Positions 27,401 to 46,129 of a stretch of DNA of 64,000 nucleotides are shown in pieces. The DNA is taken from assembly GCA_963810905.1 (NCBI GenBank), contig CAWEPG010000003.1:19315-83314 (forward strand), read 5' to 3'. Position 1 is the first letter of the stretch. Each line of letters opens with the position of its first letter. Source of the stretch: an uncultured Acidimicrobiia bacterium. Lineage in GTDB: Bacteria; Acidobacteriota; Terriglobia; Versatilivoradales; Versatilivoraceae. A program made the translations under genes and the position numbers. The notes beneath the pieces are model-generated. The model was given only the letters and a program-made list of their open reading frames with translations, was not told the DNA's origin and did not search any database.

Positions 27401-27663
27401 TTTGTACTCCGTTCGAATAATCTGTTTTCCTCAGCAAAAATGGGATCCCGCAATTTCTCCCAGATCAATCACCGACCACCTGAGAGAGAAATATCCTCAA
27501 ACATGCTATAGAGGAATTTTACACGATCTTCAATTCTTGGACAGCTTGTAATCCCAATTGCAATCCCTAAGACACCATGCCTATGCGAGACTGTGGAAAA
27601 CACACTCCTGATAATTGTTGGACAGCGACAAACCGCTGACAATCGTCAGCAGAAAACCGATCC

Positions 27664-30348
<2,685 letters not shown>

Positions 30349-30527
30349 CTCTCTGTTGGAAGAGAATTAAGATAAATCCATTCATGTAGAGAATGCAAGT
30401 GAGAGCCACATTCACCATCGTATAGATAAAGTCTTGTGCTTCGGTGACAAGAGCAGCAACACGTGTCGAGAGCCAATGTCCTCTTGTTGCGCGGCGTGAT
30501 CGAGTCTATTTCCTGTAATTAAAGACT

Positions 30528-30598
30528 AGTTGCGTTCGCCTTCCACTTCTAAATATACTTTCTCCCTTCGTTTCCCCTGACTAGGACGTTTCCCTTAA
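30528..30598 (+). promoter_or_regulatory. Conserved 5' leader or promoter shared by two diverged DUF3604-like paralogs (copy 1).
   Basis: ctaaatatactttctcccttcgtttcccctgactaggacgtttccctta is about 80 % identical to 34489-34538, although the downstream coding regions are only about 50-60 % identical at the protein level and differ in GC. Confidence 0.5.
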
Positions 30599-30645
30599 AC
30601 CTTGCTTCATCATAACTGTAGACACACAACCGAAGGAGAGGTGTT

Positions 30646-32616
30646 ATGAAAAGGAAAACTGCAGTAACCGCGGGTTTGATGTTCATCCTCGCCGGGTTTG
30701 GTGGGTTGATTTCCTGTAAGACAGCTCAAACACCGGAAGAGGCGCAGCGGTCCGGCCAAGCTGGCCAGGCCACGACCGAGCAGCCGCCGCAGCGCAACCC
30801 CGATCGCAACGCCTACTTCGGTGAGGAACACATCCACACCAGCTGGTCGGTGGACGCCTGGGTGATGGGCAACCGCATCACCGGACCTGACGACGCCCTC
30901 AAGTATGCTCAGGGCCAAACCATCAAGCATCCCATGGGCTACGACATCAAGATCGACACGCCCATGGACTTCATGGGTGTGACCGACCACTCCGAGTACG
31001 TCGGCGTCACCAAGGAAGCGAACACCCCGGGTTCGGCGATCAGCAAGATGCCGGAAGCGCAGCCCTTGATCCTCAAGGACCCCAACAACCCGGCGGAGCA
31101 GCAGAAGGTCTTCCTGTATCTCCTCTCTCTCACCAGCCGGCCTCCGATCAAGGCCTTCATGACACCGGAAGTGGCGGGCACCGTCTGGAAGGAAAACGTC
31201 AAGATCGCCGAGGAGAACAATCATCCGGGCAAGTTCACCGCGTTCTGTTCTTACGAGTGGACCTCCATGCCCAACAACCGCAACCTGCATCGCAACATCT
31301 TCTTCCGCGACTGCACCAATGTGCCGGCGATGCCCTTCAGCTCCATGGATTCCAACCATCCCGAGGACCTCTGGAAGTGGATGGACACCCAGCGCAAGGC
31401 CGGCAACGAGTTGTTGGCCATTTCGCATAACGCCAATGTGAGCGACGGCTGGATGTATCCCGTCGACCTCGACAGCTTCGGCAGGCCCATCGATGCGGCC
31501 TGGGCAGCCTCCCGCGACCGCAACGAGCGCCTGGTCGAAATCAAGCAGATCAAGGGGCAGTCCGAGACCCATCCCTTGTTGTCTCCCACCGACGAATTCG
31601 CCAACTACGAGATCTTCAGTGGCCTGCTCGGTCTTCCGCCAGACGTCGGCCGCATTGATCACATTCACGGCAGCTTCGCCCGCCAGGCCTACAAGGACGG
31701 CATAGCCATGCAGGACACCCGCGGCTACAACCCCTACAAGTTCGGCATGGCCGGCGGCTCCGACTCCCACAACACCGGCAGCCCTTACCGTCAGGACAAT
31801 TTCTATGGTGGACACGCCGAGGCGGACGGAACCGTTGAGAGGCGCCTGGCTGGGGTCATGCTGGGAAACACCATCGATGTGCGCCTGGAGAACCCGGGCG
31901 GACTGACCGGCGTGTGGGCCGAGGAAAACACCCGCGCCTCCCTCTGGGACGCCATGTATCGCAAGGAAACCTTCGGCGTCAGCGGCCCGCACATCAAAGT
32001 GCGCTTCTTCGGCGGTTGGGGCTACAACAACGACATCCTGAACGCCAGGGACTGGGTACACCAGTCCTATGCGAACGGCGTCCCCATGGGCGCCGACCTG
32101 CCTCCGATGAAGGGCATGGCTCCGACGTTCGTTGTCTGGGCGGTGAAAGACCCGACATCCGGCAATCTCGACCGCATCCAGATCATCAAGGGCTGGACCA
32201 AGAACGGCCAGAGCTTCGAGAAGATCTTCGACGTGGCCTGGTCCGGCGACCGCAAGGCCAATAAGTGGTCGGGCAGGGTTCCGGCGATCCAGAGCACCGT
32301 GGACCTGGAGAAAGCCACCTACACCAACACCGTCGGTTCGACGGAACTCAAGACAGTCTGGACCGATCCCGAGTTTGATGCCAGCCTGCATGCGTTCTAC
32401 TACGCCCGCGTGCTGGAGATCCCCACGCCGCGCTGGACCCTCATTCAGGCAGTGAAGGCCGGGGTTCCGCCGCCCGACGTGGTGCCGCTCACCGGCCAGG
32501 AGCGCGCCTGGAGTTCGCCCATCTGGTACACCCCGAGCGCTGAGGCGCGCAAGAATGCGCCCGCCGGCATGACGGTGGCCGACCTCAAGACAGAAAGGCG
32601 CAACCGCGCTGGGTGA
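30646..32616 (+). CDS. Secreted DUF3604-like putative metal-dependent hydrolase, intact copy, high GC.
   Basis: A signal peptide, then NAYFGEEHIHTSWSVDAW (HxH metal motif) and the conserved C-terminal YYARVLEIPTPRW...WSSPIWY. The gene is strongly GC3-rich, and the antisense strand stays open (684-aa shadow ORF), as expected for high GC. Confidence 0.5.
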   Translation: MKRKTAVTAGLMFILAGFGGLISCKTAQTPEEAQRSGQAGQATTEQPPQRNPDRNAYFGEEHIHTSWSVDAWVMGNRITGPDDALKYAQGQTIKHPMGYDIKIDTPMDFMGVTDHSEYVGVTKEANTPGSAISKMPEAQPLILKDPNNPAEQQKVFLYLLSLTSRPPIKAFMTPEVAGTVWKENVKIAEENNHPGKFTAFCSYEWTSMPNNRNLHRNIFFRDCTNVPAMPFSSMDSNHPEDLWKWMDTQRKAGNELLAISHNANVSDGWMYPVDLDSFGRPIDAAWAASRDRNERLVEIKQIKGQSETHPLLSPTDEFANYEIFSGLLGLPPDVGRIDHIHGSFARQAYKDGIAMQDTRGYNPYKFGMAGGSDSHNTGSPYRQDNFYGGHAEADGTVERRLAGVMLGNTIDVRLENPGGLTGVWAEENTRASLWDAMYRKETFGVSGPHIKVRFFGGWGYNNDILNARDWVHQSYANGVPMGADLPPMKGMAPTFVVWAVKDPTSGNLDRIQIIKGWTKNGQSFEKIFDVAWSGDRKANKWSGRVPAIQSTVDLEKATYTNTVGSTELKTVWTDPEFDASLHAFYYARVLEIPTPRWTLIQAVKAGVPPPDVVPLTGQERAWSSPIWYTPSAEARKNAPAGMTVADLKTERRNRAG

Positions 32617-32638
32617 CGCCCAACTCAAGGCGCTCGTC

Positions 32639-32995
32639 GTGGGCAAAGCCTTCTGGGTGCGCAATAACGTGACCGGTGAGCAGTTCAGCGTCAGCTACAC
32701 TGCCGAAGGTCAGAGCAACGTCTGGCATGTTGGCAGGAGCGCCACAACCCCGAGCAGCGTCGGCAACCCGGTGCGCGACGGCTACCAGGGAACCACCACG
32801 CCGTACAAGATTGAGAACGGCAAAGTGGTGACAACGATTTCCCAGGATCCCTTTGCGGTCACGGTCTACAAACTGGGCGACACCTATTACGGCGCACGCA
32901 GCAACGAATTCGGCTATGCCAACTACGAGATGATTCCGACGCCGCAGATCGTCATCAATCCGCTTGACGGCAATGATCAACCAGTTCTCGATTGA
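32639..32995 (+). CDS. Hypothetical protein, probably a fragment (no signal peptide or start context).
   Basis: A 118-aa ORF whose frame is open upstream (…LGDAQLKALVVGKAFWVRNNV) and runs into the stop of the preceding gene. Confidence 0.25.
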   Translation: MGKAFWVRNNVTGEQFSVSYTAEGQSNVWHVGRSATTPSSVGNPVRDGYQGTTTPYKIENGKVVTTISQDPFAVTVYKLGDTYYGARSNEFGYANYEMIPTPQIVINPLDGNDQPVLD

Positions 32996-33285
32996 GCTGG
33001 GGCTGACGGAACAACAGAAACAGCAGATCGTCCCCTTCCTGAAGCAGGAGGCGCCGAAACTGGAGGCGCTGAAGAAGAACACCTCTCTCAGGCCATTGCA
33101 GAAGGTGGAGCAGTTGAAGCAAATCGCAGCGCGAAGTCGATGCCAAAATCACGCCTCTCCTGGATCCGGCAGCAACAGCAGAAGTTCCAGGCGATACGCG
33201 AAGAGCACCGGCGTGAGTTGATAGAGAAGATGGCGAGCCAGGTGATGCAGAAGGTGGAAAGCGAGATAAAGCAGAAGCTGTAGAG
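32964..33285 (+). pseudogene. Truncated and frameshifted LTXXQ-motif (Spy/CpxP-like) periplasmic protein remnant.
   Basis: GLTEQQKQQIVPFLKQEAPKLEALKK...KVEQLKQIAA, then a shifted frame ...QQQKFQAIREEHRRELIEKMASQVMQKVESEIKQKL*. There is no signal peptide. Confidence 0.4.
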
Positions 33286-33776
33286 CCAGAAGTAAGAAAG
33301 AATCGCTGGGCTGGCCGGCAGCGCTTTAGTTTTGCGATTCTTGCGTGCGATCCGGAAGCACGTTCGCTTGGATGATCGCGTACAAGTTCAACCAAGACGG
33401 CTCTGCTCGATATCAATTCTGCAGGCTGACTCGCCGGGCAAAGACAAGGAATCCAACTAGCTGCCGACTTCTCCGGCGCGTTCAACAGCACCATTCGCAA
33501 TTATTGGCCAAAAGAAGATGCATTGAACGGCAACTACAAGAATCCGCCGATCAAGAAGGTGCAATAAAGGAATGTCTGACGGAGCCTGGCTTAGCCAAGG
33601 AAGACGCCTACCTGACTATTAATCGAGCAGTGTTGGAGGGCATAACTTCCGTGTTCTCTCCTCGCCCGCAGTCGGGGAGAGGGATCGGGGGTGAGGGGCG
33701 CGGTTAGCCCTAGGTGTCCTACTTCCGCACCTATTATAATCAGACTTCTTAAAAAGATTGAATCTAGGAAGGTCCA

Positions 33777-34145
33777 ATGAAAAAGATCCTCATGCTCGCG
33801 GCATTGGCCGAAGCGGGCACGGGAGTGATTTTGCTCGCCTATCCACCAATCGTCGTCCGGCTGCTGTTCGACACAGAACTCGTCGGTGCCAGCGTTATCA
33901 TGAGCCGCCTCGCGGGCATTGCTCTGATCGGATTGGGGGCCGCCTGCTGGCCGGCTAACCCTACAGTGCGGGCGTTTTACGGGATGGTGACCTATAGCTC
34001 GCTCGCCATGCTGTACCTTATTTACATCGGCGTCCGCGGAGAAGTGGTTGGGTTGCTATTGTGGCCGGCAGTTGTGGTCCATGCGATCCTCGTCGTTGTT
34101 CTCTGCCGCGCGCGAATCAAAGAAGAAAAGACGCCGGCGGCATAA
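33777..34145 (+). CDS. Small 4-TM membrane protein, hypothetical.
   Basis: A 122-aa ORF with four hydrophobic helices and a good start context. Confidence 0.4.
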   Translation: MKKILMLAALAEAGTGVILLAYPPIVVRLLFDTELVGASVIMSRLAGIALIGLGAACWPANPTVRAFYGMVTYSSLAMLYLIYIGVRGEVVGLLLWPAVVVHAILVVVLCRARIKEEKTPAA

Positions 34146-34192
34146 GGACTTGAACTGATGATTTGCCGTCTTTGCTTGGCAGCTTTTGAATT

Positions 34193-34385
34193 CCCCTCTC
34201 GGGAGGGGAGAGAGGGCTCGCAGAGCCCTCAGGGGTGGGTTTGAGCTCAGGTTGCATTCAAGACCGACCCACCCCTACCCCCTCCGTCGGAGGGGAATCA
34301 ATAGTCTTCTCCTCAGCCTAAGAGGGGCGGTCGCTAGTGCAACGAGCTGCTGACCTGAGGGAAAGCGGTAGCAAGCTACCGCACT
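34193..34385. repeat. Array of five or more GC-rich perfect hairpins (REP-like or terminator cluster).
   Basis: cccctc-tcgg-gagggg; gagggct-cgcag-agccctc; aggggtgggt-N26-acccacccct; ccctcc-gtc-ggaggg; gcggtagc-aa-gctaccgc. Confidence 0.5.
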
Positions 34386-34488
34386 CCAAAATTGATAAGT
34401 TCTCACGTATGGTGGTGAACGGGGAGTCAAGACTTCGCTCAGGATCTGGTTGAGTTTACATTCTTCATAGTGACCAGTTGCTTGCTGC

Positions 34489-34538
34489 GCCCTCAACTCT
34501 AAGTATACTTTTTCGTCAGTTTTCCCCTGACGGAACCG
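34489..34538 (+). promoter_or_regulatory. Conserved 5' leader or promoter, copy 2 (upstream of the decayed paralog).
   Basis: ctaagtatactttttcgtcagttttcccctgacggaaccgttcccattta aligns to 30549-30598. The RBS-proximal aaccgaaRgagag is also shared. Confidence 0.5.
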
Positions 34539-34584
34539 TTCCCATTTATACGTGAACACAATTTTCCGTCGACTAAGAACCGAA

Positions 34585-36416
34585 AGAGAGAACATATGAA
34601 AGCGAAAGCATGCCTAGTGGTGGCATTAGTCGCTGATACTTGCGATCACGCTGGGTATTAGTGCGGTGTTCTGCGCAGGAGAAAAATCCAGAGCGTAATG
34701 CCTATTTCGGCAGATCTGCATCTGCACAGCGGATATTCCATGGATGCCTTCGCCTTCGGCACCAGGACCACGCCTGAGGACTCATACAAATATGCGATGG
34801 GTGAAACCGTGAAATACATGGGAAAGCCTCAAAAGCGAATCGCGCCGCTCGACTTCCTTGCCGTAACCGACCACGGCGAGTATCTGGGAGTAGTGCGCGA
34901 CACGATTGATCCCAATGGCCCATTCGCGAAGTCCGAGTGGTACACCATCATGACCAACCCCAATCCCAAGGTATCGGGCGAAGCGTTTCAGAAAATCGCC
35001 CGACTTTGACCGTCGTCAACAAGCCTCTGCCGGAGTTCAACGACCCCAAAACTGCTGCGCTCCGCATGGGAGAAATACGCGGCGATCTCTGACAAGTACT
35101 ACAAGCCCGGGAAGTTCACGACATTCGTGGGATTTGAGTGGACGTCGGCCCCACAGTTCCAGAACCTGCATCGCTGCGTGATCTTCGCCAATAAAGGGCC
35201 GGAGATGCCGTTCTCGGCGTTCGACTCGCAAGATCCGGAAAAGCTTTGGGAATATCTGGAAGCACCAACGCAAGCAGGGAATCGACGTCATTGCAGTGCC
35301 CCACAACGCCAACGTCAGCAACGGCCTGATGTTCAGCACCGCGCGACATGTCGGGCAAGCCGATTACCCGCGATTACGCCGAGCGCCGCATGGCAAACGA
35401 ACCACTCGCCGAGATTATTCAGGCCAAGGGCCAGAGCGACACGAGTCCGGCGCTTTCACCCACTGACGAATTCGCCAACTTCGAGATGTTCCCCTATCTG
35501 ATTGGCACCAGATGTCAAGGCAAAGTCCGCAACCGGGAGCTATCTGCGTCAGGCTTACGGCGTAGGACAGGAGCAGCAGGCCAAGCTGGGCGTCAATCCG
35601 TTCAAGTACGGCATCGAGGCCGGGACCGACTTCCACTCCGGTATTTCGTCCACTGAGCCGAGCAACTATCCGGGCTCGCACGGCAACCAGGACAATGATC
35701 CTAAAACCGTGATCACCTCTACTACTTCGGTCAGCGGGGAACCCCTGACCGCTCTCAGTTCAGCCGGACTCACCGGAGTCTGGGCCGAGGAGAACACCCG
35801 CGAATCCATCTTTGCGGCGTTAAAGCGGAAGGAGACATTCGGCACGTCCGGAACCCGAATCAAGGTTCGCATGTTTGCCGGTTGGAATTATCCCAAGGAC
35901 ATGACCAAACAGGCAGATTGGGTAAAAGCTGCATACAATGGCGGCGTGTCCATGGGTGGCGACCTTACAGCAACGTCAGGATCAGCTGTTCCAACGTTCG
36001 TCGTTCACGCCATCAAAGACCCCAACAGCGGCAATCTCGATCGCGTTCAGATCATCAAGATTTCGACCAGGGATGGTAAGAGCAAGGAAACCGTTTACGA
36101 CGTCGTTTGGAGCGGGGACCGCAAGGCCGATCCAAAAACCGGCAAGGTCCCAGCCGTTGGCAATACGGTTGACGTGAAGACCTCCACGTACACGAACTCA
36201 ATCGGCGCAGCCGAATTGGCCGTTATGTGGAGGGATCCATCGTTCGATCCGAAAGCTTATGCGACATACTATGCGCGGGTCCTGGAAATACCAACTCCAC
36301 GGTGGTCTACCTATTGGGCCGCCGAGCTGAACCTGCCTCCCAACCCAAACGTCGCGGCCACTGTGCAGCAGCGTGCCTGGACGTCGCCCATTTGGTACGC
36401 TCCGGCAAAGCCATAG
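34585..36416 (+). pseudogene. Decayed paralog of the DUF3604-like gene (about seven frameshifts).
   Basis: Five ORF pieces (34698..35009, 35127..35501, 35348..35656, 35502..36416 and the N-terminal MKAKA piece) match copy 1 collinearly. Examples are NAYFG(D)LHLHSGYSMD, FVGFEWTSAPQFQNLHR, LSPTDEFANFEMF and LTGVWAEENTRE...YYARVLEIPTPRW...WTSPIWYAP. The frameshift density is about eight times the window background. Confidence 0.7.
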
Positions 36417-36430
36417 GAGTTGTTTATTGA

Positions 36431-37441
36431 GTGAGTGAAATTTCTGTAGGCATCGTTCCAGATAAGCATGATTCCGACTCGGAATCTAGGCCGAAGAGTT
36501 CCGTCGTTCCTTTCCTTATGCGCTGGCTGCGCGAGCCGCTCCTGCACTTTCTACTCCTCGGGGTCGCGCTGTTCGCTGTTTACGCTACTTGCATCGCGGC
36601 CGCGGCGGAGTCGAATCGTCCCGGCAGATTATTCTGAGCCTCGATGAACTTCGGCAGATGGACATGTACTTCGAGTCGCAATGGCATCGCCAGCCGACTC
36701 CGGCTGAGTTCCAAGCGATGGTCGAGGACAAGGTGCGCGAGGAGGTCCTTTACCGCGAAGGTATTGCGATGGGCCTCGACAAAGACGACACCATCGTCAA
36801 GCGCCGCATGGCGCAGAAGATGCAGTTCCTCGCCGAAGACGTGGCCGCCGCTCACGAACCTTCCACGGCGGAGCTCAAGGCCTGGTTCGACAAAAACAAA
36901 GACAAGTTTGCCCTGCCGGGCCGCTACAGCTTCCGCCATCTTTACTTCTCACCCGACAAGCGCGGCAAGAATGCGCAGGAAGATGCCGCCAAGGTACTGG
37001 CCAAAATCGCCAGCCAGCCGGAAGACTCGAAACTGGCAGCATCCCTCGCCGATCCATTCATGTTCCAGAATTATTACGGTGACCGCACTCCCGAGGCGAT
37101 CGCCAAGGAGTTCGGTCCGCCGTTCGCGATGACCCTGCGAGAAGCTGAAGCCCGGTTCATGGCAGGGGCCGGTTGAGTCCGGCTACGGCTGGCATTGTGT
37201 ATTCGTCGATACCGTGATCCCAGGCCGCATTCCCGCTTTTGAAGAAGTCGAGCCGGATGTAAAGACCGCCTGGCTGGGGGAACAGAAAGCTCAGGCCTGG
37301 AAGAAAGCCTATGATGCGATGCGCGCCAAATACATCGTGCTTCTACCTGCGCCTCCCGCGAAGGAATCGGCGCAGCCCACCTCTCCTCCACCTCCCCTCA
37401 AGAAGCAGGTTCCCGCCCCATCCGGTGAGGGACCGCTGTGA
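36431..37441 (+). CDS. Membrane-anchored PpiC-type (parvulin) peptidyl-prolyl isomerase / SurA-PpiD-like chaperone, with two frame breaks.
   Basis: An N-terminal TM anchor (LLHFLLLGVALFAVYATCIAAAA), a chaperone-like middle part, and then in the next frame SGYGWHCVFVDTVIPGRIPAFEEVEPDVKTAW (parvulin S-x-YGWH-V signature). Confidence 0.5.
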
Positions 37442-37758
37442 GCGGCGAACGCCGGAGCAACGTCAGATGCGGATCCGGGATGCGAGATGCGGCAAATGGG
37501 TTGCGATGAAAAAAAATGGAAGAACAGAGGACGAGATTCGAGAGTTGAGGTCCGAGATACGGGATGCCAGATGACGTAAATGCAAGAAGCATGAAATCGA
37601 GGAGCAGGAGCTCGAATCGCGTATTCGAGCCTTTCATTCTGTATCCCGAATCCGTATCTTGCATTTCGCATCTCGCATCCTTTGCGCATCTGGCCAGCAT
37701 CTAGCGGTCTCGCTATCTCTATCCCATACCTCCTGTCTCTAATCATTCCTTTGCTATT
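37441..37758. repeat. Heptanucleotide-repeat block A (GAGATRC-type units, then the complementary GYATCTC-type units), an imperfect long palindrome.
   Basis: ggatgcgagatgcg at 37476-37490 pairs with cgcatctcgcatcc at 37667-37680, and aaatgcaag pairs with cttgcattt. The stretch is a run of 7-nt units. It probably also encodes the displaced signal peptide of the downstream HupE gene. Confidence 0.6.
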
Positions 37759-38712
37759 GTGTCCCCTGCCTTTGCCCACGAAGCACGCCCTGCTTACCTG
37801 GAGATCAAGGAAACCGAGCCCGATCAGTTCAGCGTCCTCTGGCGCACACCGGTTCTTGCAGGTATGCGTCTGCCCATCCTTCTGAAATTGCCTGACGACT
37901 CGAAGAACCTGAAGGAGCCCACCGTCCAGGAATTGGCGGATTCCCTCGTGGAGCGCCGATGGGTGAATGCCGGGCCGAATGGGCTGGCCGGAAAGCGGAT
38001 CGAATTCGTTGGGCTGCAAGCGACAATCACCGATGTCGTGGTCCGCGTTGAGATGCTCGACGGCAGGAAATGGACAACCATCGTTCACCCTTCGCAACCA
38101 TGGGTGGAGCTTGCCGCTTCGCAAACCAGGCTGGGTGTGATGGGCACCTACATCGTGCAGGGTATCCGGCACATCCTCTTCGGCGCCGATCATCTGCTCT
38201 TCGTGCTTGGTCTGCTGCTGATCGTGAAAGATCGCTGGATGCTACTGAAGACGGTCACGGCCTTCACCGTGGCGCACAGCATCACCTTGGCCATAGCGAC
38301 CCTGGGCTATGCCGAGGCGCCGGTAGTTCCTTTGAATGCCGCAATCGCTCTGAGCATTCTTTTCCTGGGACCGGAGATTGTGCGTTCCTGGCGCGGGGAG
38401 ACCAGCTTCACGATCCGCCATCCTTGGGTGGTGGCTTTTGCATTTGGGCTGCTGCATGGCTTCGGGTTTGCCAGCGCGCTCACGAGTGCCGGTTTGCCGC
38501 GAACGGAGTTGCCGCTCGCGCTGGTGAGCTTCAATGTTGGTGTAGAGCTCGGGCAACTTGGTTTCATCCTGCTGGTCCTGGCGCTGGAACGTTCTTTCTC
38601 TATACTCGAAGTCCGTTGGCCACGGTGGGCTCAGGCACTTCCTGGATACGCCGTGGGTGGGCTCGGCGCATTTTGGACTATTCAAAGAGTGGCGGTGATG
38701 ATTACAGGATGA
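37682..38712 (+). CDS. HupE/UreJ_2-family metal (Ni/Co-type) transporter with an N-terminal periplasmic domain. The signal peptide appears to lie in a different frame (frameshift near 37750).
   Basis: The mature region starts AFA|HEARP (a typical HupE signal-peptidase site). The core is GIRHILFGADHLLFVLGLLL and the protein has 6 TM. An upstream ATG at 37682 gives a hydrophobic leader in the +1 frame. Confidence 0.55.
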
Positions 38713-38832
38713 TGCGATGCGAGATCCGAGATGCGGGGATGCGGGATGCGAGAGAATGCGAGTTGTGAAAAGCGAAATCTCGACATCCTGAATCCCGGAT
38801 CACGTACCCCGTATCAGGCTTCTTATTAAATT
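38713..38832. repeat. Heptanucleotide-repeat block B.
   Basis: Forward units gatgc gagatcc gagatgc ggggatgc gggatgc gagagaatgc, then the reverse-type units gacatcc tgaatccc ggatcac gtacccc gtatcag. Confidence 0.55.
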
Positions 38833-39246
38833 ATGAGCTACAGAACACTTGAGATTTGGCAACTGGCTCGCGACTTATCGATTGAGATTCATCACATGAC
38901 GTTGGAGTCGTTGCCGAGGCTGGAAATGTATGAAGAAGCGTCTCAAATTCGCCGCTCAGCTAAATCCATCAGATCCAATATTGTCGAAGGATATGGGAGG
39001 CGAAGGTACAAGTTGGAGTTCGTGCGCTTTTTGACCTATGCACACGCCTCATGCGATGAGACAATTGATCACCTTGAAACCCTGCACGAAACTGGATCTC
39101 TCGCGGAAGACGCTTTGTATGAGCGGCTTCATCAAAAGCTGAACCATTTAGGTGGAAAACTCAACCACTTCATTCAAGGTGTGGAGTTGCAGCACCGTTC
39201 GGTTCGGGAGGATAGCGCCGAGTACAAGCGAGATGAAGAAGAGTGA
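38833..39246 (+). CDS. Four-helix-bundle protein (the '23S rRNA intervening-sequence protein' family, the same family as DGR Avd proteins).
   Basis: A 137-aa ORF ([21 protein letters not shown]...[17 protein letters not shown]...[17 protein letters not shown]), the typical size and motif pattern for the TIGR02436/PF05635 family. Confidence 0.7.
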
Positions 39247-39477
39247 CGGATATGATATGGGTTAATAAGCGATGGGAGATACGAGATACGAGATGGAAGA
39301 TGCGAAATACCGTATAGAAAATGTAAGTGGCCGTGCGCGAGTACCTGAAATCTCGTATCCCGCATCCCGCATCTCGTATCCCGCATCTCGTTTCTCGTAT
39401 CCCGCATCTCGTTTCTCGCATCTCGTTCTCGTATCCCGCATCTCGTTTCTCGTATCAAGTATCTTGCCTCCATCATT
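39247..39477. repeat. Heptanucleotide-repeat block C: five forward GARATRC units (39276-39310), then about 17 tandem ATCYCGY units (39350-39468).
   Basis: atctcgt atcccgc atcccgc atctcgt atcccgc atctcgt ttctcgt atcccgc atctcgt ttctcgc atctcgt ... Every frame of the unit is used, so the spurious ORFs here have a 7-aa period (EMRDTRN / SRISYPA). Confidence 0.7.
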
Positions 39478-40041
39478 GTGATTCTTTTCGCGTTCTGGCC
39501 CGTCTCTGTATTTGCGCATACGCAAAAAGGCGAGGCCGCCGGCTTTCTGACCGGCTTTCGTCATCCCATCTCGGGGATGGACCATGTGCTGGCAATGGTC
39601 GCCGTGGGCCTTTGGGGCGCACAGCTCGGAGCTCCCGCAGTGTGGCTACTGCCGGTTGCGTTTCCCTTGGTGATGGCGATGGGAGGAATGCTCGCGCTCA
39701 TGGGCGTACCATTACCCGGCATTGAATACGGGATTGCCGCATCCGCTATCTTACTCGGCTCCGCTGTGATGTTTGAGATCCGCCCGCCTCTGGTAGTGGC
39801 TGCCCTAATGGTTGGATTCTTCGCCATTTTCCATGGGCACGCCCACGGCACCGAACTCCCGCCGGGCCAAAGTGCCCTGCTCTACAGCATGGGCTTCGTG
39901 ATTGCGACGGGTTGTTTGCACGCGGTGGGAATCAGTATCGGAGCGGTCCATCGATGGGTGTGGGGACAAAGATTGCTGCGGCTTGCCGGTGCCCTAGTCG
40001 CAGTGGGTGGTGTCTTCTTCATGTGGAGAGCGTTCGCATGA
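39478..40041 (+). CDS. hupE: HupE/UreJ family Ni/Co transporter (canonical).
   Basis: A GTG start, signal ...SVFA|H, then [21 protein letters not shown] and HGHAHG, the classic HupE motifs. 187 aa. Confidence 0.8.
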
Positions 40042-40673
40042 AACGATCTCGTGTTCCTGTTTTCTGCGCAGTCTTGTTGGCTTTCGCCATGTGTCCGCTT
40101 ACGGCGGAAGCTCATCTGAATTCCACGGGCATGGGCCCACTCTACGATGGCCTTATGCACTTCTTGATGAGCCCGGAGGACTTCGTGCCAGCGCTGGCGT
40201 TAGCGCTCTTGGTGGGTCTGCGTGGGACGGCGTACGGACGGCGGGCACTGTTTACGCTTCCAACGGCGTGGCTATTCGGCGGTCTTATCGGAACAGGCGC
40301 AGCCGCTAGAATTGGCAGTCCCGTGGTATCAGCAGTATGGTTTATCCTCCTCGGTGTGCTGCTCGCCTCGGACGCAAGCTTTCGTTGGGGAGTCGCCTCG
40401 AACGCCAAGCTTTCGTTGCGGGCGATCACCGCATTGGCTGTCTTGCTTGGGGTCTACAATGGCTACCTCAACGGCACCGGAATGGGACAGTTCGACATTG
40501 CCGCCATTGCTTTACTTGGATTAGCTTTCACAGTGTTTGCTCTCGTGGCGTTGGCTGCAGCGTTTGTGGTGCGATTGCGAGCGGAGTGGGGACGAATCGC
40601 CATGCGGGTCGTGGGTAGTTGGATTGCAGCAAGCGGCTTGCTCATGCTCGGTTGGGCGATTCGCGGAGGTTGA
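40039..40673 (+). CDS. HupE/UreJ_2-like membrane protein (third paralog), translationally coupled to the preceding gene (ATGA overlap).
   Basis: [25 protein letters not shown]|H signal, GLMHFLMSPEDFVPALALALLVGL and six TM segments. Confidence 0.5.
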
Positions 40674-41131: not shown

Positions 41132-41301
41132 ACCAGCAAGCCATGTCCTAGTAGGGTTCTTGGAATTCCGTGGATGATTTCCGCTAGCTCCTGACTTGAA
41201 AGTAGAACTGTGTGTCTTGCGCCGGGAGGCATGTGCGATCGGTTGCCAGTGCAAGTCCGGAGAAAGGGTTTGAATATCTCTACTTCGATGGAGGTGTCAC
41301 C

Positions 41302-44300
41302 GTGAAGATGGCCGTGGTTTTTATACTCATGCTAGTTTCCTTGCCTGTGTTTGCCCAGAGTAATTATGCGGAACTGAGCGGCACTGTTCTGGACCCCGGG
41401 CGGGGCGCCATCGTTGGTGCTAGCATCCAGCTAACTTCAGTCTCAACCCTTGCAGAGCGGACCGCGAGCACTAACGTGCACGGGATCTTTCAGATTCCAG
41501 GCTTGCCCCCTGGCGAGTACAAATTACTCGTCAAGGCGCTGGGATTTGCAGAGACCAATCAGTCCTTTCGGCTCGAGGTCGGACAAAGGCTAAGCCTTGA
41601 CCTGACCCTCAAACTGGACTCTGTTGCTAAAGCCATTGAAGTTACCGGGGGCGCAGAACCGATAGCCAAGACAGACGCGAGTGTCGGCGAGGTCATCGAA
41701 CCCACCTCCATTTCAAACCTCCCGCTCAACGGCCGGATGTTGATTGATTTGGTTTTAACAGTTCCGGGGGCCCATGTCAGCCATGGAGCCCAAGCTGGCG
41801 ACATGAGTTCACTCTACTGGCGCCCCGGCCAGCGCTCGGCCGTCAGCATCGGAGGCAACCGCCCCAATGCAAATTATTTTCTTCTTGATGGTACGACCAA
41901 CACTGATCCTACTTTTAACACGCTAAACTTGAGCCCGTCGCCTGATGCGGTGCAAGAGTTCAAAGTCCAGACTGGGAGTTATTCTGCAGAAATGGGTGGG
42001 GCTGGCGGCGGGCAGATCAACATTGTCACAAAATCTGGGACGAATCAATTCCATGGGACTGTTTACGACTTCTTGCGAAACGGGGCGCTCGATGCCCATA
42101 CATTCAACGACATGGGTTCGAAGTTTCTGGTTCAGAACAACTTCGGAGGGGCCCTTGGCGGTCCTATCATCCACAACAAGACATTCTTTTTTATGAGTTA
42201 TGAGGGGTTGAGGCTTTCGAAGGCGGACACCATGATTGATACGGTTCCTACAGAAATGGAGACCATGGGTGATTTCAGCATGAGCGGTGTTACGATCTAC
42301 AACCCGTTCAGTTCTCACCCCAACCCGAACTACGATCCCAAAAAGCCGATTAGTCCTTCTAATCCGCAGATTTTGCGCGACACGTTCCCCGGCAACGTGA
42401 TCCCATCAAACATGATTAATCCTGCAACTGCTCAATTCCTCGCGAAATATGTGCCTCGTCCCAACATGGACATGGGAATGAATGGCTGCGATGGAATGAC
42501 AATGATGGGCCAGCCCACAGTCATAGGGGCGGGCGTTGACTGCAATAACTATACCGACACTCGTAATGAGCATCACCTCACTGACCAAGGCATGATCCGG
42601 ATTGATCAAATGTTCAGCCAAAACGATAACTTGTGGTTCCGTTACTCCCTGAGTGGTGAGAATGGCTTCACGCCCCAAAATCTGCCTGGCTTCGGTGCGA
42701 TCCATGACAATTTTGCCCAACAAGGTAGCATCGGATGGAACCACGTCATGAGCCCAGTGATGGTGAACATGGCGGCAATCAGCATTTCGCGGCTTTCAAT
42801 GCACCGCTCTTCGGAAAATAGCGAAAGCAACGATATCGTCAGTGAGCTGGGGATTAAAGGAATCGGTTACGGGGGGAGGGGGCATATGGTGCACCCTACT
42901 TCAATTTGCAAGGTTATTCCCCAATGGGTGATTCTTATATTGCGACTCCCATGCATGCCTGGGATACGATCCTGGAAGCCCGCGACGTGTTGACTTGGCA
43001 GCGCGGTCGTCACGGGCTCAAATTTGGTGGAAGCTTCCGTTATTTTATATGGCCAATGTGGGGGTTTTTTCAGAATCGCGGATACTATCAGATGACCAAC
43101 GGCTACACGACTCAAACTGCTACTAACGATGGTACCGGCTCAGCATTAGCCAGTTTCCTTCTGGGACTGCCTGCAGTCAAGCAACGCCAGGCTGGCATTC
43201 CCCAGATGCAGCTTCGCCAATGGTATGCCGACGGCTTTGTACAGGATAGTTTCCGGCTGTCGGGGAGCACCACTTTAGAAATGGGGCTGCGCTATGAATA
43301 CATGAGCCCGCTGACCGACATCCGGTATACTAATAGTAATCTCGACTTCCAGGACGGGAAGCCGGATGCGTTTATAGGCGGACAACTCGGCTACCCCACA
43401 GGCCTGAGATATTCCAACAAGCTGAACTTCGCTCCGCGCTTTGGCGTCTCCCACTATCTACCAAGCCACGGAACCGTACTTCACGCAGCCTTCGGCATCT
43501 TTTACACACCGGTCGATATGAACACATGGTGCAACCAGCGCCACAACGTTCCCTATGTGTTCCCCGAAACCCAACAAGCCGACAACTTCACCCCGCCTGC
43601 CACGCTGGTTGCTTCCGGGTTTAACTTCGGCCAGCCGGTCCTAGGTTTGACAACAGTGAGTTTTGCCTCGATGGATCTGCACGGTCCGCCACAATACATC
43701 GAGCAATGGAGTGCTTCAGTCGAGAAAAGCCTTGGTAATCTGACAACACTTGAGATCGGATACCTGGGGAGCCATGGACTCCACCTTCAACGAGCGCACC
43801 TCGTTAACAATGCTCTACCCGGTCCTGGCCCCATTGGTCCCCGACGGCCGTTCAGAACAGTAAGCTTCTTGCCTGGAACGGTGCTCCCTACCGACATTAC
43901 AGTTCTGAGTACTACGTTTCCTGTGAGTACCATCAATATTCTGGAAAACTCAGCCCGGAGTTGGTACAACGCCGGTTATGTCAACGTTCGCCGCCGTTAT
44001 GCGGATGGTTTTACATTTTTGGCTAATTACACCTGGTCCAAGAACTTGACGGACGCCCCGGACTTTCGTTCCCCTATGTTTGAATCCTCAATTCCCCAGA
44101 ATAACAATAACTTGATTGGCGAAAAAGGACTGGGTTGCGATGTGCGTCATCGATTCGCTCTCAGCGCCGTCTATAATATTCCTCAGATTAATGGCTCTCA
44201 GGCAGTCCGAATACTAAGCCGCAATTGGCAAGTAGCGACCATCTATCAAGTTCAAACCGGATTCCCGTTCACTATTTCGGTATTTGGTGACACGGCAAAC

Positions 44301-44675
44301 TCCGGTACAGTGCTTGGAGAGAATCCCATTCGCGCCAACTACACGGGACAACCTGTGTTCGGACCGAACACCGGCAATGCTGACGCGTGGTTTAACCCAT
44401 CGGCGTTCGCGACACCCGCGGCCTTCACGTTTGGAAATTTAGGGCGGAACACGGTCTACGGGCCGGGCATGCAAACGCTTGATATGGCGGTGGCTCGCGA
44501 ATTTGGAACCAGTGAACGATTTCGCTTCCAAATTCGGGCTGAATTTTTCAATACGCTGAACCAAGTGAATCTCGGCACACCCAACCGCTTCGTGAATACA
44601 CCGCAGTTCGGTACGATCACTGAAGCCGCCACTCCGGGTCGGCAGATTCAGCTCAGTGCACGGTTTTCATTTTAG
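41302..44675 (+). CDS. TonB-dependent outer-membrane receptor with an N-terminal carboxypeptidase-regulatory-like domain, frame-broken near 42873-42885 (G-runs).
   Basis: A signal peptide, then AQSNYAELSGTVLDPGRGAIVGASIQL... (CarbopepD_reg), a plug region and a long barrel. The terminal residue is F. ORFs 41212..42993 and 42906..44675 overlap at the break. Confidence 0.8.
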
Positions 44676-45607: not shown

Positions 45608-46129
45608 TCACTTCATGATCACTCCGCAGGCAATTCGGTCCCCTGCATTGCCCGTAGGATCGGTCATTTCGTCGTCTGCTTTCTCATGGATGATAATTGC
45701 AGTACCCCCTTCATGAAAAAGGGAGTTTGAACCCGCAGTTAGAGTTACTCGCTTGTTCAGTATCATTAACTTCCCCTTGCCATTCTTGCCGACCGTGATG
45801 TTAGGCATGTCACCGGCATGGGGACCAGAAGGATTCTTCGAGCCATGTTTCATGTTCTGGGGGTTGAGGTGCCCACCAGCCGATTTAAAATCGGGCGGAT
45901 CACATTTGCCTACCGTGTGGATGTGAAAAGCGTGCGTGCCGGGTGGCAGACTGAATACCTTAAGGGAAACCTCAATCCCATCAATAGCCTGCTTGAAAGA
46001 CGCACTCCCCACTTTTTGACCTTGCGCATTTTTAAGCTCTGCCTTCGCTGATTTCGGCCCCTTTTCGGCGGCTGTTAGCGAACCAACGAACAGCAATAAA
46101 ATCCCCAATGAAGTTGTGTATCTGCTCAT
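45608..46129 (-). CDS. sodC: Periplasmic Cu/Zn superoxide dismutase.
   Basis: A signal peptide, then FHIHTVGKCDP, GGHLNP, GPHAGDMPN, IIHEKADD and GNAGDRIACGVI, which are Cu/Zn-binding His/Asp and Cys motifs. Confidence 0.9.
   Translation of the reverse strand: MSRYTTSLGILLLFVGSLTAAEKGPKSAKAELKNAQGQKVGSASFKQAIDGIEVSLKVFSLPPGTHAFHIHTVGKCDPPDFKSAGGHLNPQNMKHGSKNPSGPHAGDMPNITVGKNGKGKLMILNKRVTLTAGSNSLFHEGGTAIIIHEKADDEMTDPTGNAGDRIACGVIMK

What the first reader, a model, noticed from the sequence alone, without database searches (positions are those of the whole stretch)
30528..34538. Conserved 5' leader shared by two diverged DUF3604-like paralogs, one intact high-GC copy and one decayed native-GC copy
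The roughly 70 nt upstream of the intact gene (30528-30598) and of the pseudogene (34489-34538) are about 80 % identical: CTAARTATACTTTYTC..GTTTYCCCCTGAC..G.ACGTTCCC.TTTA plus the shared RBS context AACCGAARGAGAG. The two coding regions are only about 50-60 % identical as proteins and differ strongly in GC and GC3 (copy 1 is GC3-rich, copy 2 is genome-like).

A leader that is conserved better than the coding sequence implies purifying selection on a cis-regulatory element (promoter plus operator, or a structured 5' UTR) specific to this gene family. The arrangement also suggests functional replacement of a decaying resident copy by an acquired or converted high-GC copy. The stretch between the two copies (32.6-34.4 kb) is a zone of gene fragments and hairpin arrays.
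Basis: seen in the sequence. Interest (0 to 1): 0.7.

Follow-up and report, generated by a model that had tools for sequence, protein, structure and literature searches.

The report
Duplicated promoter-leader; second gene is a fusion
The two similar upstream regions are real. They are the promoter and leader copies of two closer DUF3604 paralogs, one of which survives here only as a 5' stub fused onto a third, distant paralog, so this is ordinary gene-family history and not a leader preserved better than its genes.

Summary
The similarity is real. Both upstream regions align without gaps at the same distance from the ATG: 58 of 97 bases match, z about 7.9 against every 97-mer in the window. 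Identity is 60% over 97 nt and 68% over the 50-nt core, not about 80%.

The interpretation mostly fails. A close relative (L020) carries the same second leader and signal peptide on an intact mid-form DUF3604 paralog. That paralog is 76% aa and 74.5% nt identical to copy 1. In the window this leader and 38 codons are fused to the short-form body, exactly at the conserved NAYFG motif. So the leader (60-64%) is less conserved than the coding sequence it came with, and close to its synonymous sites (52%).

Copy 1 is not intact. Homologs are about 875 aa. A +1 frameshift at 32592, shared with L020, cuts off the C-terminal 220 aa, whose remains fill 32.6-33.3 kb.

Long, small, mid/short, rotamase and HupE genes form a conserved Terriglobia operon. 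Orthologs outside this clade have unrelated leaders. No RNA structure and no Rfam match were found.

What remains is a clade-restricted promoter plus 5'-UTR module. Its blocks (-10 TATAYT, TTCCCCT, AACCGAAnGAGAG) show modest constraint.

The parts
30524..30645 (+). Leader 1 (type A), upstream of the long-form DUF3604 gene. Features: GACTAG + TTGCGT (-35-like, 30530-30535), 18-nt spacer, TATACT (-10-like, 30554-30559), TTCCCCT box (30572-30578), AACCGAAGGAGAG Shine-Dalgarno block (30628-30640).
   Evidence: It is 95% identical to the orthologous leader in L020 and 62% to the one in L001.
30646..32616 (+). Long-form DUF3604 ORF, truncated to 656 aa. The DUF3604 domain is complete. GC3 is 0.84.
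   Evidence: Pfam PF12228, E=1.6e-207. Homologs are about 875 aa and 88-94% identical. GC3.
32590..33285 (+). Decayed C-terminal tail of the same long-form gene. The +1 insertion at 32592 is shared with L020. The +1 insertions at 32969, 33131 and 33168 are private to the window.
   Evidence: tblastn of the L002 long form, residues 649-878, onto 32588-33280. Indel map against four intact orthologs. P0031 from L020 ends ...KAERRNRVG, the same frameshifted end.
33383..33569 (+). 3' remnant of a DUF1254/DUF1214 gene. In Edaphobacter aggregans this gene lies between the long form and the small gene.
   Evidence: blastn, 87.8% identity to L003 7954-8135.
33777..34145 (+). Intact 122-aa gene, a conserved operon member with no Pfam family.
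   Evidence: 82% aa identity to the L001 small protein and 61% to the L002 one. It holds the same position in L001, L002, L005, L007, L011 and L021.
34189..34300 (+). GC-rich hairpins in the intergenic spacer, REP-like.
   Evidence: Inverted repeats I6, I11, I14. Sub-threshold Rfam whalefall-1 match: 28.8 bits against a gathering score of 37.
34472..34595 (+). Leader 2 (type A). Features: GACCAG + TTGCTTGCTG (-35-like), TATACT (34504-34509), TTCCCCT (34522-34528), AACCGAAAGAGAG (34578-34590). It originally belonged to the mid-form paralog.
   Evidence: It is 89% identical to the leader of the intact mid-form gene in L020.
34596..34711 (+). 5' stub of the mid-form DUF3604 gene, from the signal peptide MKAKACLVVALV to EKNPERNAYFG. 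It carries two +1 insertions relative to L020.
   Evidence: Nucleotide alignment with L020 9676 onwards.
34693..34712 (+). Fusion junction inside the conserved AATGCCTATTTCGGC (NAYFG) motif. Upstream matches the mid form and downstream matches the short form. One extra A sits at the junction.
   Evidence: Six-sequence alignment.
34712..36416 (+). Short-form DUF3604 body with 5 further frameshifts. The rebuilt protein is up to 89% identical to short-form orthologs.
36431..40670 (+). Rest of the operon, given as context: Rotamase_2 (frameshifts near 36586 and 37137), HupE/UreJ 1 (intact), HupE/UreJ 2 (frameshift near 39457), HupE/UreJ 3.
   Evidence: tblastn with L001, L002 and L006 proteins.

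Best explanation
The two leaders are paralogous copies of one promoter plus 5'-UTR module. They belong to the long-form (about 875 aa) and mid-form (about 762 aa) DUF3604 genes of a Terriglobia operon: long, small ORF, mid and/or short, PpiC-type rotamase, three HupE/UreJ genes.

In the window's lineage a deletion by recombination at the conserved NAYFG-coding motif joined the mid-form promoter, leader and signal peptide to the body of the distant short-form paralog. This makes the leader look far better conserved than 'its' gene.

The module reads as follows:
- a sigma-70-like promoter (TTGCGT, 17-18 nt spacer, TATAYT);
- a TTCCCCT box a few bases after the predicted transcription start;
- an unstructured UTR of about 80 nt;
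- an AACCGAAnGAGAG ribosome-binding block five bases before TATG.

Shown: the homology, the fusion junction, the truncation of copy 1, the clade restriction, the absence of RNA structure, and slower change in the blocks.

Inferred: the promoter assignment, the transcription start, and any regulator binding at the TTCCCCT box.
For: - L020 is colinear with window 27655-33616 at 93% nt identity. It has leader 2 (89% identical) followed by an intact gene that is 76% aa and 74.5% nt identical to copy 1 but only 45% aa identical to copy 2.
- The window sequence switches from mid-form to short-form inside AATGCCTATTTCGGC.
- L021 shows the order long, small, mid, rotamase, short, HupE in one genome. 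About 760-aa mid-form orthologs are common.
- Leader identity of 60-64% lies between long/mid 4-fold-site identity (52%) and CDS identity (74.5%).
- -35-like and -10-like hexamers are conserved in win1, win2, L020-1 and L001.
- Invariant positions are clustered (p=0.003) and avoided by ortholog substitutions (p=0.007).
- Leaders fold no better than shuffles (z = +1.35, -0.28, +1.01). Consensus folds give -0.76 and -2.26 kcal/mol with a positive covariation term.
- No Rfam match to either leader at gathering score, or at E<=1 over 30300-34800.
Against: - The consensus promoter scan found no site here at its threshold, because the -35-like hexamer matches only 3 of 6. No transcript data are available.
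- Only three independent leader lineages exist (window/L020 leader 1, window/L020 leader 2, L001), so the constraint estimates are weak.
- The L020 contig ends inside the mid-form gene, so the ancestral mid-to-short interval was not seen in a close relative.
- L021's long and mid genes have unrelated leaders. The duplication is therefore old, and 60% identity here needs either constraint or a later conversion of the 5' regions.
- The fusion could in principle be an assembly join.
Confidence: 0.78

Rival explanations
1. The leader is a cis-regulatory element specific to the DUF3604 family, either promoter plus operator or a structured UTR. Purifying selection keeps it more conserved than the coding sequence.
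For: - Blocks are clustered and change more slowly in ortholog comparisons.
- There are no indels across the 97 nt in the three-way comparison.
- The TTCCCCT box sits where an operator overlapping the transcription start would lie.
Against: - The motif is absent upstream of long, mid and short orthologs in eight other genomes or contigs.
- Motif scans of the GTDB genomes and the JGI metagenomes gave only chance hits.
- There is no third copy in the window.
- Against its true coding partner, the leader is less conserved than the CDS.
- No regulator gene lies nearby.
Confidence: 0.2
2. The long and mid genes duplicated long ago. The similarity of their leaders in this clade comes from a later gene conversion, or copying, of the 5' region between the two paralogs.
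For: - L021 has long and mid forms with unrelated leaders.
- The locus shows mosaicism: identity to L001 steps from about 0.62 to about 0.93 at +88.
- The region upstream of leader 2 (34349-34392) shares an element with the region upstream of the L001 long form.
Against: - The three leader versions are equidistant at about 62%, so any conversion is not recent.
- There are too few genomes to date it.
- This rival is compatible with the best explanation and does not exclude it.
Confidence: 0.3
3. The shared leader is a structured RNA, a riboswitch or an attenuator.
For: One of the three leaders, leader 2, has a local inverted repeat, TTTCGTCAG-N7-CTGACGGAA (I15).
Against: - No Rfam match.
- Folding z-scores are at or above zero.
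- Consensus folds are near 0 kcal/mol with no supporting covariation.
- The inverted repeat is not conserved in leader 1 or in L001.
Confidence: 0.03
4. The mid::short junction and many of the frameshifts are assembly artefacts. The real genome would then have separate, intact mid and short genes.
For: - About 12 of 15 frameshifts are +1 insertions, often doubling a neighbouring base, and they cluster.
- The related contigs have long-read-assembler style names.
Against: - The 32592 frameshift is shared with an independent assembly that is 7% diverged.
- A DUF1254/1214 remnant and an IS in L020 show that this locus really is decaying.
- The junction homology is only about 17 nt, too short for a long-read assembly to collapse on.
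- Flanking genes of 0.9-1.3 kaa are intact.
Confidence: 0.1

Closest known systems
Segmental duplication of a gene together with its promoter and 5' UTR (paralogous upstream regions)
   Same: The two leaders lie at the same distance from the ATG. Their similarity ends about 125 nt upstream. The coding sequences they originally served are 74.5% nt identical.
   Different: One of the two genes has since lost its body, so inside this window the duplication is visible only in the leader and the first 38 codons.
Fusion (chimeric) gene made by a deletion between tandem paralogs through recombination at a short conserved motif
   Same: There is a clean switch of parentage inside a conserved stretch of about 17 nt, the NAYFG codons. 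The 5' parent and the 3' parent are both identifiable in relatives.
   Different: The product is not functional here. It carries 8 frameshifts, one of them at the junction itself.
Sigma-70-type bacterial promoter with an operator overlapping the transcription start
   Same: A TATAYT hexamer lies 17-18 nt after TTGCGY, and a conserved box lies just downstream of the predicted start.
   Different: The -35 match is weak (3/6) and falls below the scan threshold. No regulator or transcription start is known. Promoters of Terriglobia are poorly characterised (my own knowledge).
Riboswitches and other cis-regulatory leader RNAs (Rfam)
   Same: This is a conserved stretch in a 5' leader of about 80 nt.
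   Different: There is no Rfam match, no stable fold and no covariation.

Membership tests
DUF3604 (Pfam PF12228) | Match to the family HMM above the gathering score | tested here: met
   Copy 1 scores 691 bits over profile positions 1-591. The intact 3' ORF of copy 2 scores 373 bits over profile positions 296-591.
Long-form DUF3604 (about 875 aa) orthologs of Terriglobia | Full length, including the C-terminal extension of about 220 aa | tested here: not met
   The ORF stops at 656 aa. The extension is present but out of frame, with four +1 insertions.
Paralogous (duplicated) promoter-leader | The adjacent coding sequences of the two leaders are themselves homologous at equal or higher identity | tested here: met
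   L020 mid form against copy 1: nt 74.5%, aa 75.6%, 4-fold sites 52%. Leaders: 60-64%.
Recombinant fusion gene | A single breakpoint with different parentage on each side, lying within shared homology | tested here: met
   The alignment of win2, the L020 mid form and four short-form orthologs switches within AATGCCTATTTCGGC.
Family-wide cis-regulatory motif | Motif present upstream of orthologs in other genomes | tested here: not met
   It is present only in the window, L020 and L001. It is absent in L002, L003, L006, L010-L013 and L021. Collection scans gave only chance hits.
Structured cis-regulatory RNA (Rfam families) | Covariance-model match, or a conserved fold with covariation | tested here: not met
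Sigma-70-type promoter | -35 and -10 hexamers with 16-18 nt spacing, and a mapped transcription start | tested here: inconclusive
   TTGCGT-18 nt-TATACT is conserved in four leaders but falls below the scan threshold. The transcription start cannot be tested with these tools.
   No conserved palindrome was found; I15 occurs only in leader 2. No regulator gene was found among the flanking ORFs scanned against Pfam (19.3-30.3 kb and 41.2-47.7 kb). Binding cannot be tested here.

The most novel reading that the evidence does not exclude
The TTCCCCT box and the AACCGAAnGAGAG block are the target of a clade-specific regulator, possibly metal-responsive given the HupE/UreJ and TonB-receptor genes. 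This regulator would co-control the long-form and mid-form DUF3604 genes, and the module would be kept similar in both by selection and not only by shared descent.
Probability: 0.15. Interest if true: 0.35.

Novelty: new member of a known kind. Interest (0 to 1): 0.2.

Why it matters
It matters mainly as a correction. Inside this window a leader seems to outlast its gene, which would point to a new regulatory element. The comparison genomes show instead a gene fusion that hides the leader's true coding partner.

The useful by-products are:
- a three-class picture (long, mid, short) of the uncharacterised DUF3604 family within a conserved Terriglobia operon with PpiC and HupE/UreJ genes;
- a documented example of decay of that operon;
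- a small set of candidate promoter and UTR blocks for a phylum whose promoters are poorly known.

Tried and rejected
- **Rfam.** Gathering-score search on the whole window and E<=1 search on 30300-34800 found nothing on the leaders.
- **Folding.** Single-sequence and consensus folding of 3 and 5 leaders gave no structure.
- **Motif scan of GTDB genomes.** TATAYTTNNTCNNNNNNWTTCCCCTNANNNNNNCNNNNCC gave one chance hit, in Ca. Scalindua.
- **Motif scan of JGI metagenomes.** TTCCCCTN{39,45}GACNNNNAACCGAANGAG gave six unrelated hits. Protein-based locus retrieval might have yielded more leaders.
- **Profile search.** nhmmer with the leader profile against the window and all loci found no further copies.
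- **Source contig.** An exact-protein look-up of the 122-aa gene found no record.
- **Function of DUF3604.** Literature, PDB and NCBIfam gave nothing.
- **Anti-Shine-Dalgarno pairing.** Pairing of TTCCCCT or CTTTCTCC with the ribosome-binding site was considered by eye. It is not in register across sequences and was not predicted by folding.
- **Known operators.** NikR, RcnR and Zur-type boxes were considered from memory. None fits.
- **Whole-operon transfer.** Recent horizontal transfer of the whole operon was considered because of its higher GC. The GH63-long synteny with Edaphobacter argues for an ancestral position, so only the copy 1 body looks exchanged.
Full report
**1. Observation**

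- The block CTAA(A/G)TATACTTT begins at 30549 and at 34499. In both cases this is exactly 97 nt before an ATG (30646 and 34596), and the two stretches align without a gap.
- Identity is 68% over the first 50 nt and 60% over all 97 nt. It drops to about 34% in the 100 nt further upstream in an ungapped comparison.
- Leader 1 compared with every 97-mer of the window gives mean 24.1 matches and sd 4.3. Leader 2 gives 58 matches and the next best gives 43.
- With small indels the similarity continues to about -125, through GACYAGTTGC.

**2. The genes are not what they seemed**

- Copy 1 (30646-32616) is a full DUF3604 domain, but its homologs are about 875 aa long and 88-94% identical.
- The missing C-terminal 220 residues are encoded in 32590-33285 in other frames.
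- Against four intact orthologs the window carries +1 insertions at 32592, 32969, 33131 and 33168. The first is shared with L020, an independent contig about 7% diverged from the window. The L020 protein ends ...KAERRNRVG, the same frameshifted end.
- So the 'gene fragments' at 32.6-33.3 kb are copy 1's own tail.
- The rest of the spacer holds a 3' remnant of a DUF1254/DUF1214 gene (33383-33569), an intact conserved 122-aa gene (33777-34145) and GC-rich hairpins.

**3. Operon context**

- Related Terriglobia contigs carry: long DUF3604, small ORF, [mid and/or short DUF3604], Rotamase_2, three HupE/UreJ genes.
- The window has the same order from 30.6 to 40.7 kb, followed by a split TonB-receptor-like gene.
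- A GH63-like gene lies divergently upstream, as in Edaphobacter aggregans.
- Long and short forms therefore coexist anciently. One is not replacing the other.

**4. Identity of leader 2**

- L020 is colinear with window 27655-33616 at 93% nt identity.
- In L020 an IS element lies upstream of a copy of leader 2 (89% identical). That leader is followed by an intact gene whose N-terminus is the window's MKAKACLVVALV...EKNPERNAYFG.
- The gene then continues as a paralog 71-76% aa identical to the long form and only 45% identical to copy 2.
- Proteins of this mid form, about 760 aa, are common. L021 shows long, small, mid, rotamase and short in one genome.
- A six-sequence alignment shows the window following the mid form up to AATGCCTATTTCGGC (NAYFG) and the short form from the next codon on.
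- Copy 2 is therefore a mid::short fusion, most simply formed by a deletion through recombination at that conserved motif. No other mid-form remnant is present in the window.

**5. Consequence for the claim**

| Comparison | aa identity | nt identity | 4-fold-site identity |
|---|---|---|---|
| Long form vs mid form (the proper partners of the two leaders) | 75.6% | 74.5% | 52% |
| Leader 1 vs leader 2 | - | 60-64% | - |

- The leader is less conserved than its true coding partner and only slightly above that partner's synonymous sites.

**6. Distribution**

- Type-A leaders were found only in the window (two copies), L020 (two copies) and L001 (one copy).
- Other long-form orthologs share a different leader (...GTCATGCCATTCAGCAAGACGGAGGCATTTATG).
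- Short-form orthologs share another (GGCGGTATACAATCG...), or have none because they abut the small gene.
- L021's three genes have unrelated leaders.
- Motif scans of GTDB genomes and JGI metagenomes returned only chance hits.

**7. What the leader probably is**

- Conserved in all lineages: TTGCGY, a 17-18 nt spacer, TATAYT, then TTCCCCT about 12 nt later, a few scattered bases, GTnGAC and AACCGAAnGAGAG-N4-TATGAAA.
- The 41 positions invariant among win1, win2 and L001 are clustered (p=0.003).
- Substitutions between the window and L020 avoid these positions (3/88 against 16/112, p=0.007). The blocks therefore evolve more slowly.
- There is no RNA structure: z-scores are +1.35, -0.28 and +1.01, and consensus energies are -0.76 and -2.26 kcal/mol. 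There is no Rfam match.
- The strict promoter scan did not call a site.
- I read the module as a promoter, a start-proximal box that may be an operator, an open UTR and a ribosome-binding site. The promoter and operator parts are inference.

**8. The part of the interpretation that survives**

- Copy 1's GC3 (0.84) exceeds that of every other window gene (0.50-0.71) and of its own orthologs (0.72-0.78).
- Window-to-L001 identity is about 0.62 from -111 to +88 and about 0.93 beyond +88, while the window and L020 are uniformly about 0.93 identical.
- The long-form body is unusually conserved at synonymous sites across genera.
- Exchange of the gene body between lineages, or strong codon selection, is therefore plausible. 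The direction of any exchange is unknown.

**9. Caveats**

- Only three independent leader lineages are available.
- The L020 contig ends inside the mid-form gene.
- About 12 of 15 frameshifts in the operon are +1 insertions and only one is corroborated by a second assembly, so some may be assembly errors.

**10. Verdict**

The similarity is real and the history behind it is worth knowing, but it reflects an ordinary process. Interest is low.

Noticed in passing
window 32592-39457: About 12 of the roughly 15 frameshifts in the operon are +1 insertions, often doubling a neighbouring base. They cluster: 4 in 32.59-33.17 kb and 8 in 34.63-35.52 kb. Flanking large genes are intact. Only the one at 32592 is shared with a second assembly. 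Real decay and assembly error cannot be separated for the rest.
   Followed up: partly
window 30734-32590 compared with L001, L002, L003, L005, L006, L007: The long-form DUF3604 coding sequence is unusually conserved at the nucleotide level across genera. 4-fold-site identity is 0.68-0.86, while neighbouring operon genes are only 72-80% nt identical. Against L001 there is a sharp identity step at about +88. This suggests exchange between lineages or strong synonymous-site selection.
   Followed up: partly
window 33383-33569: This is a 3' remnant (88% nt identity) of the DUF1254/DUF1214 gene that lies between the long form and the small gene in Edaphobacter aggregans. The rest of the gene has been deleted.
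   Followed up: yes
window 41212-44675: A TonB-dependent-receptor-like gene (CarboxypepD_reg + Plug + OMP_b-brl_4) is split into two overlapping ORFs. This is probably another frameshift in the same decaying neighbourhood. A Cu/Zn superoxide dismutase gene follows at 45608-46129.
   Followed up: no
window 34189-34241: A GC-rich hairpin gives a sub-threshold Rfam match to whalefall-1 (28.8 bits against a gathering score of 37, E=1.5e-4). Similar GGGGAGAGGG-type palindromes occur at 33650-33700 and 34230-34300. They are likely REP-like intergenic repeats.
   Followed up: no
window 34349-34392; L001 3790-3831: An element of about 43 nt containing the palindrome GCGGTAGCAAGCTACCGC followed by ACTCCAA lies upstream of leader 2. 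It also lies upstream of the L001 long-form leader at about 80% identity. It occurs once in the window, and its nature is unknown.
   Followed up: partly
L020 7773-9570: An IS element (DDE_Tnp_1/DUF772 transposase) is inserted immediately upstream of leader 2 in the close relative L020. It replaces the -35-like region. The mid-form gene behind it is intact as far as the contig goes.
   Followed up: partly
window 39349-39456: Several staggered BLAST matches to one stretch of about 45 nt in L001 and L005 suggest a short tandem repeat just before, or at the start of, the second HupE/UreJ gene.
   Followed up: no
L015 5181-5329, L018 1134-1282, L019 469-617: Three chance hits from the metagenome motif scan share a conserved element of about 110 nt among themselves (TTGCCTTCCCCTTGAGGG...GTAAACCGAAGGAGAAGGTGGCCGAAGGCCGGATGAGGTG). 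It is unrelated to this finding and was not identified.
   Followed up: no
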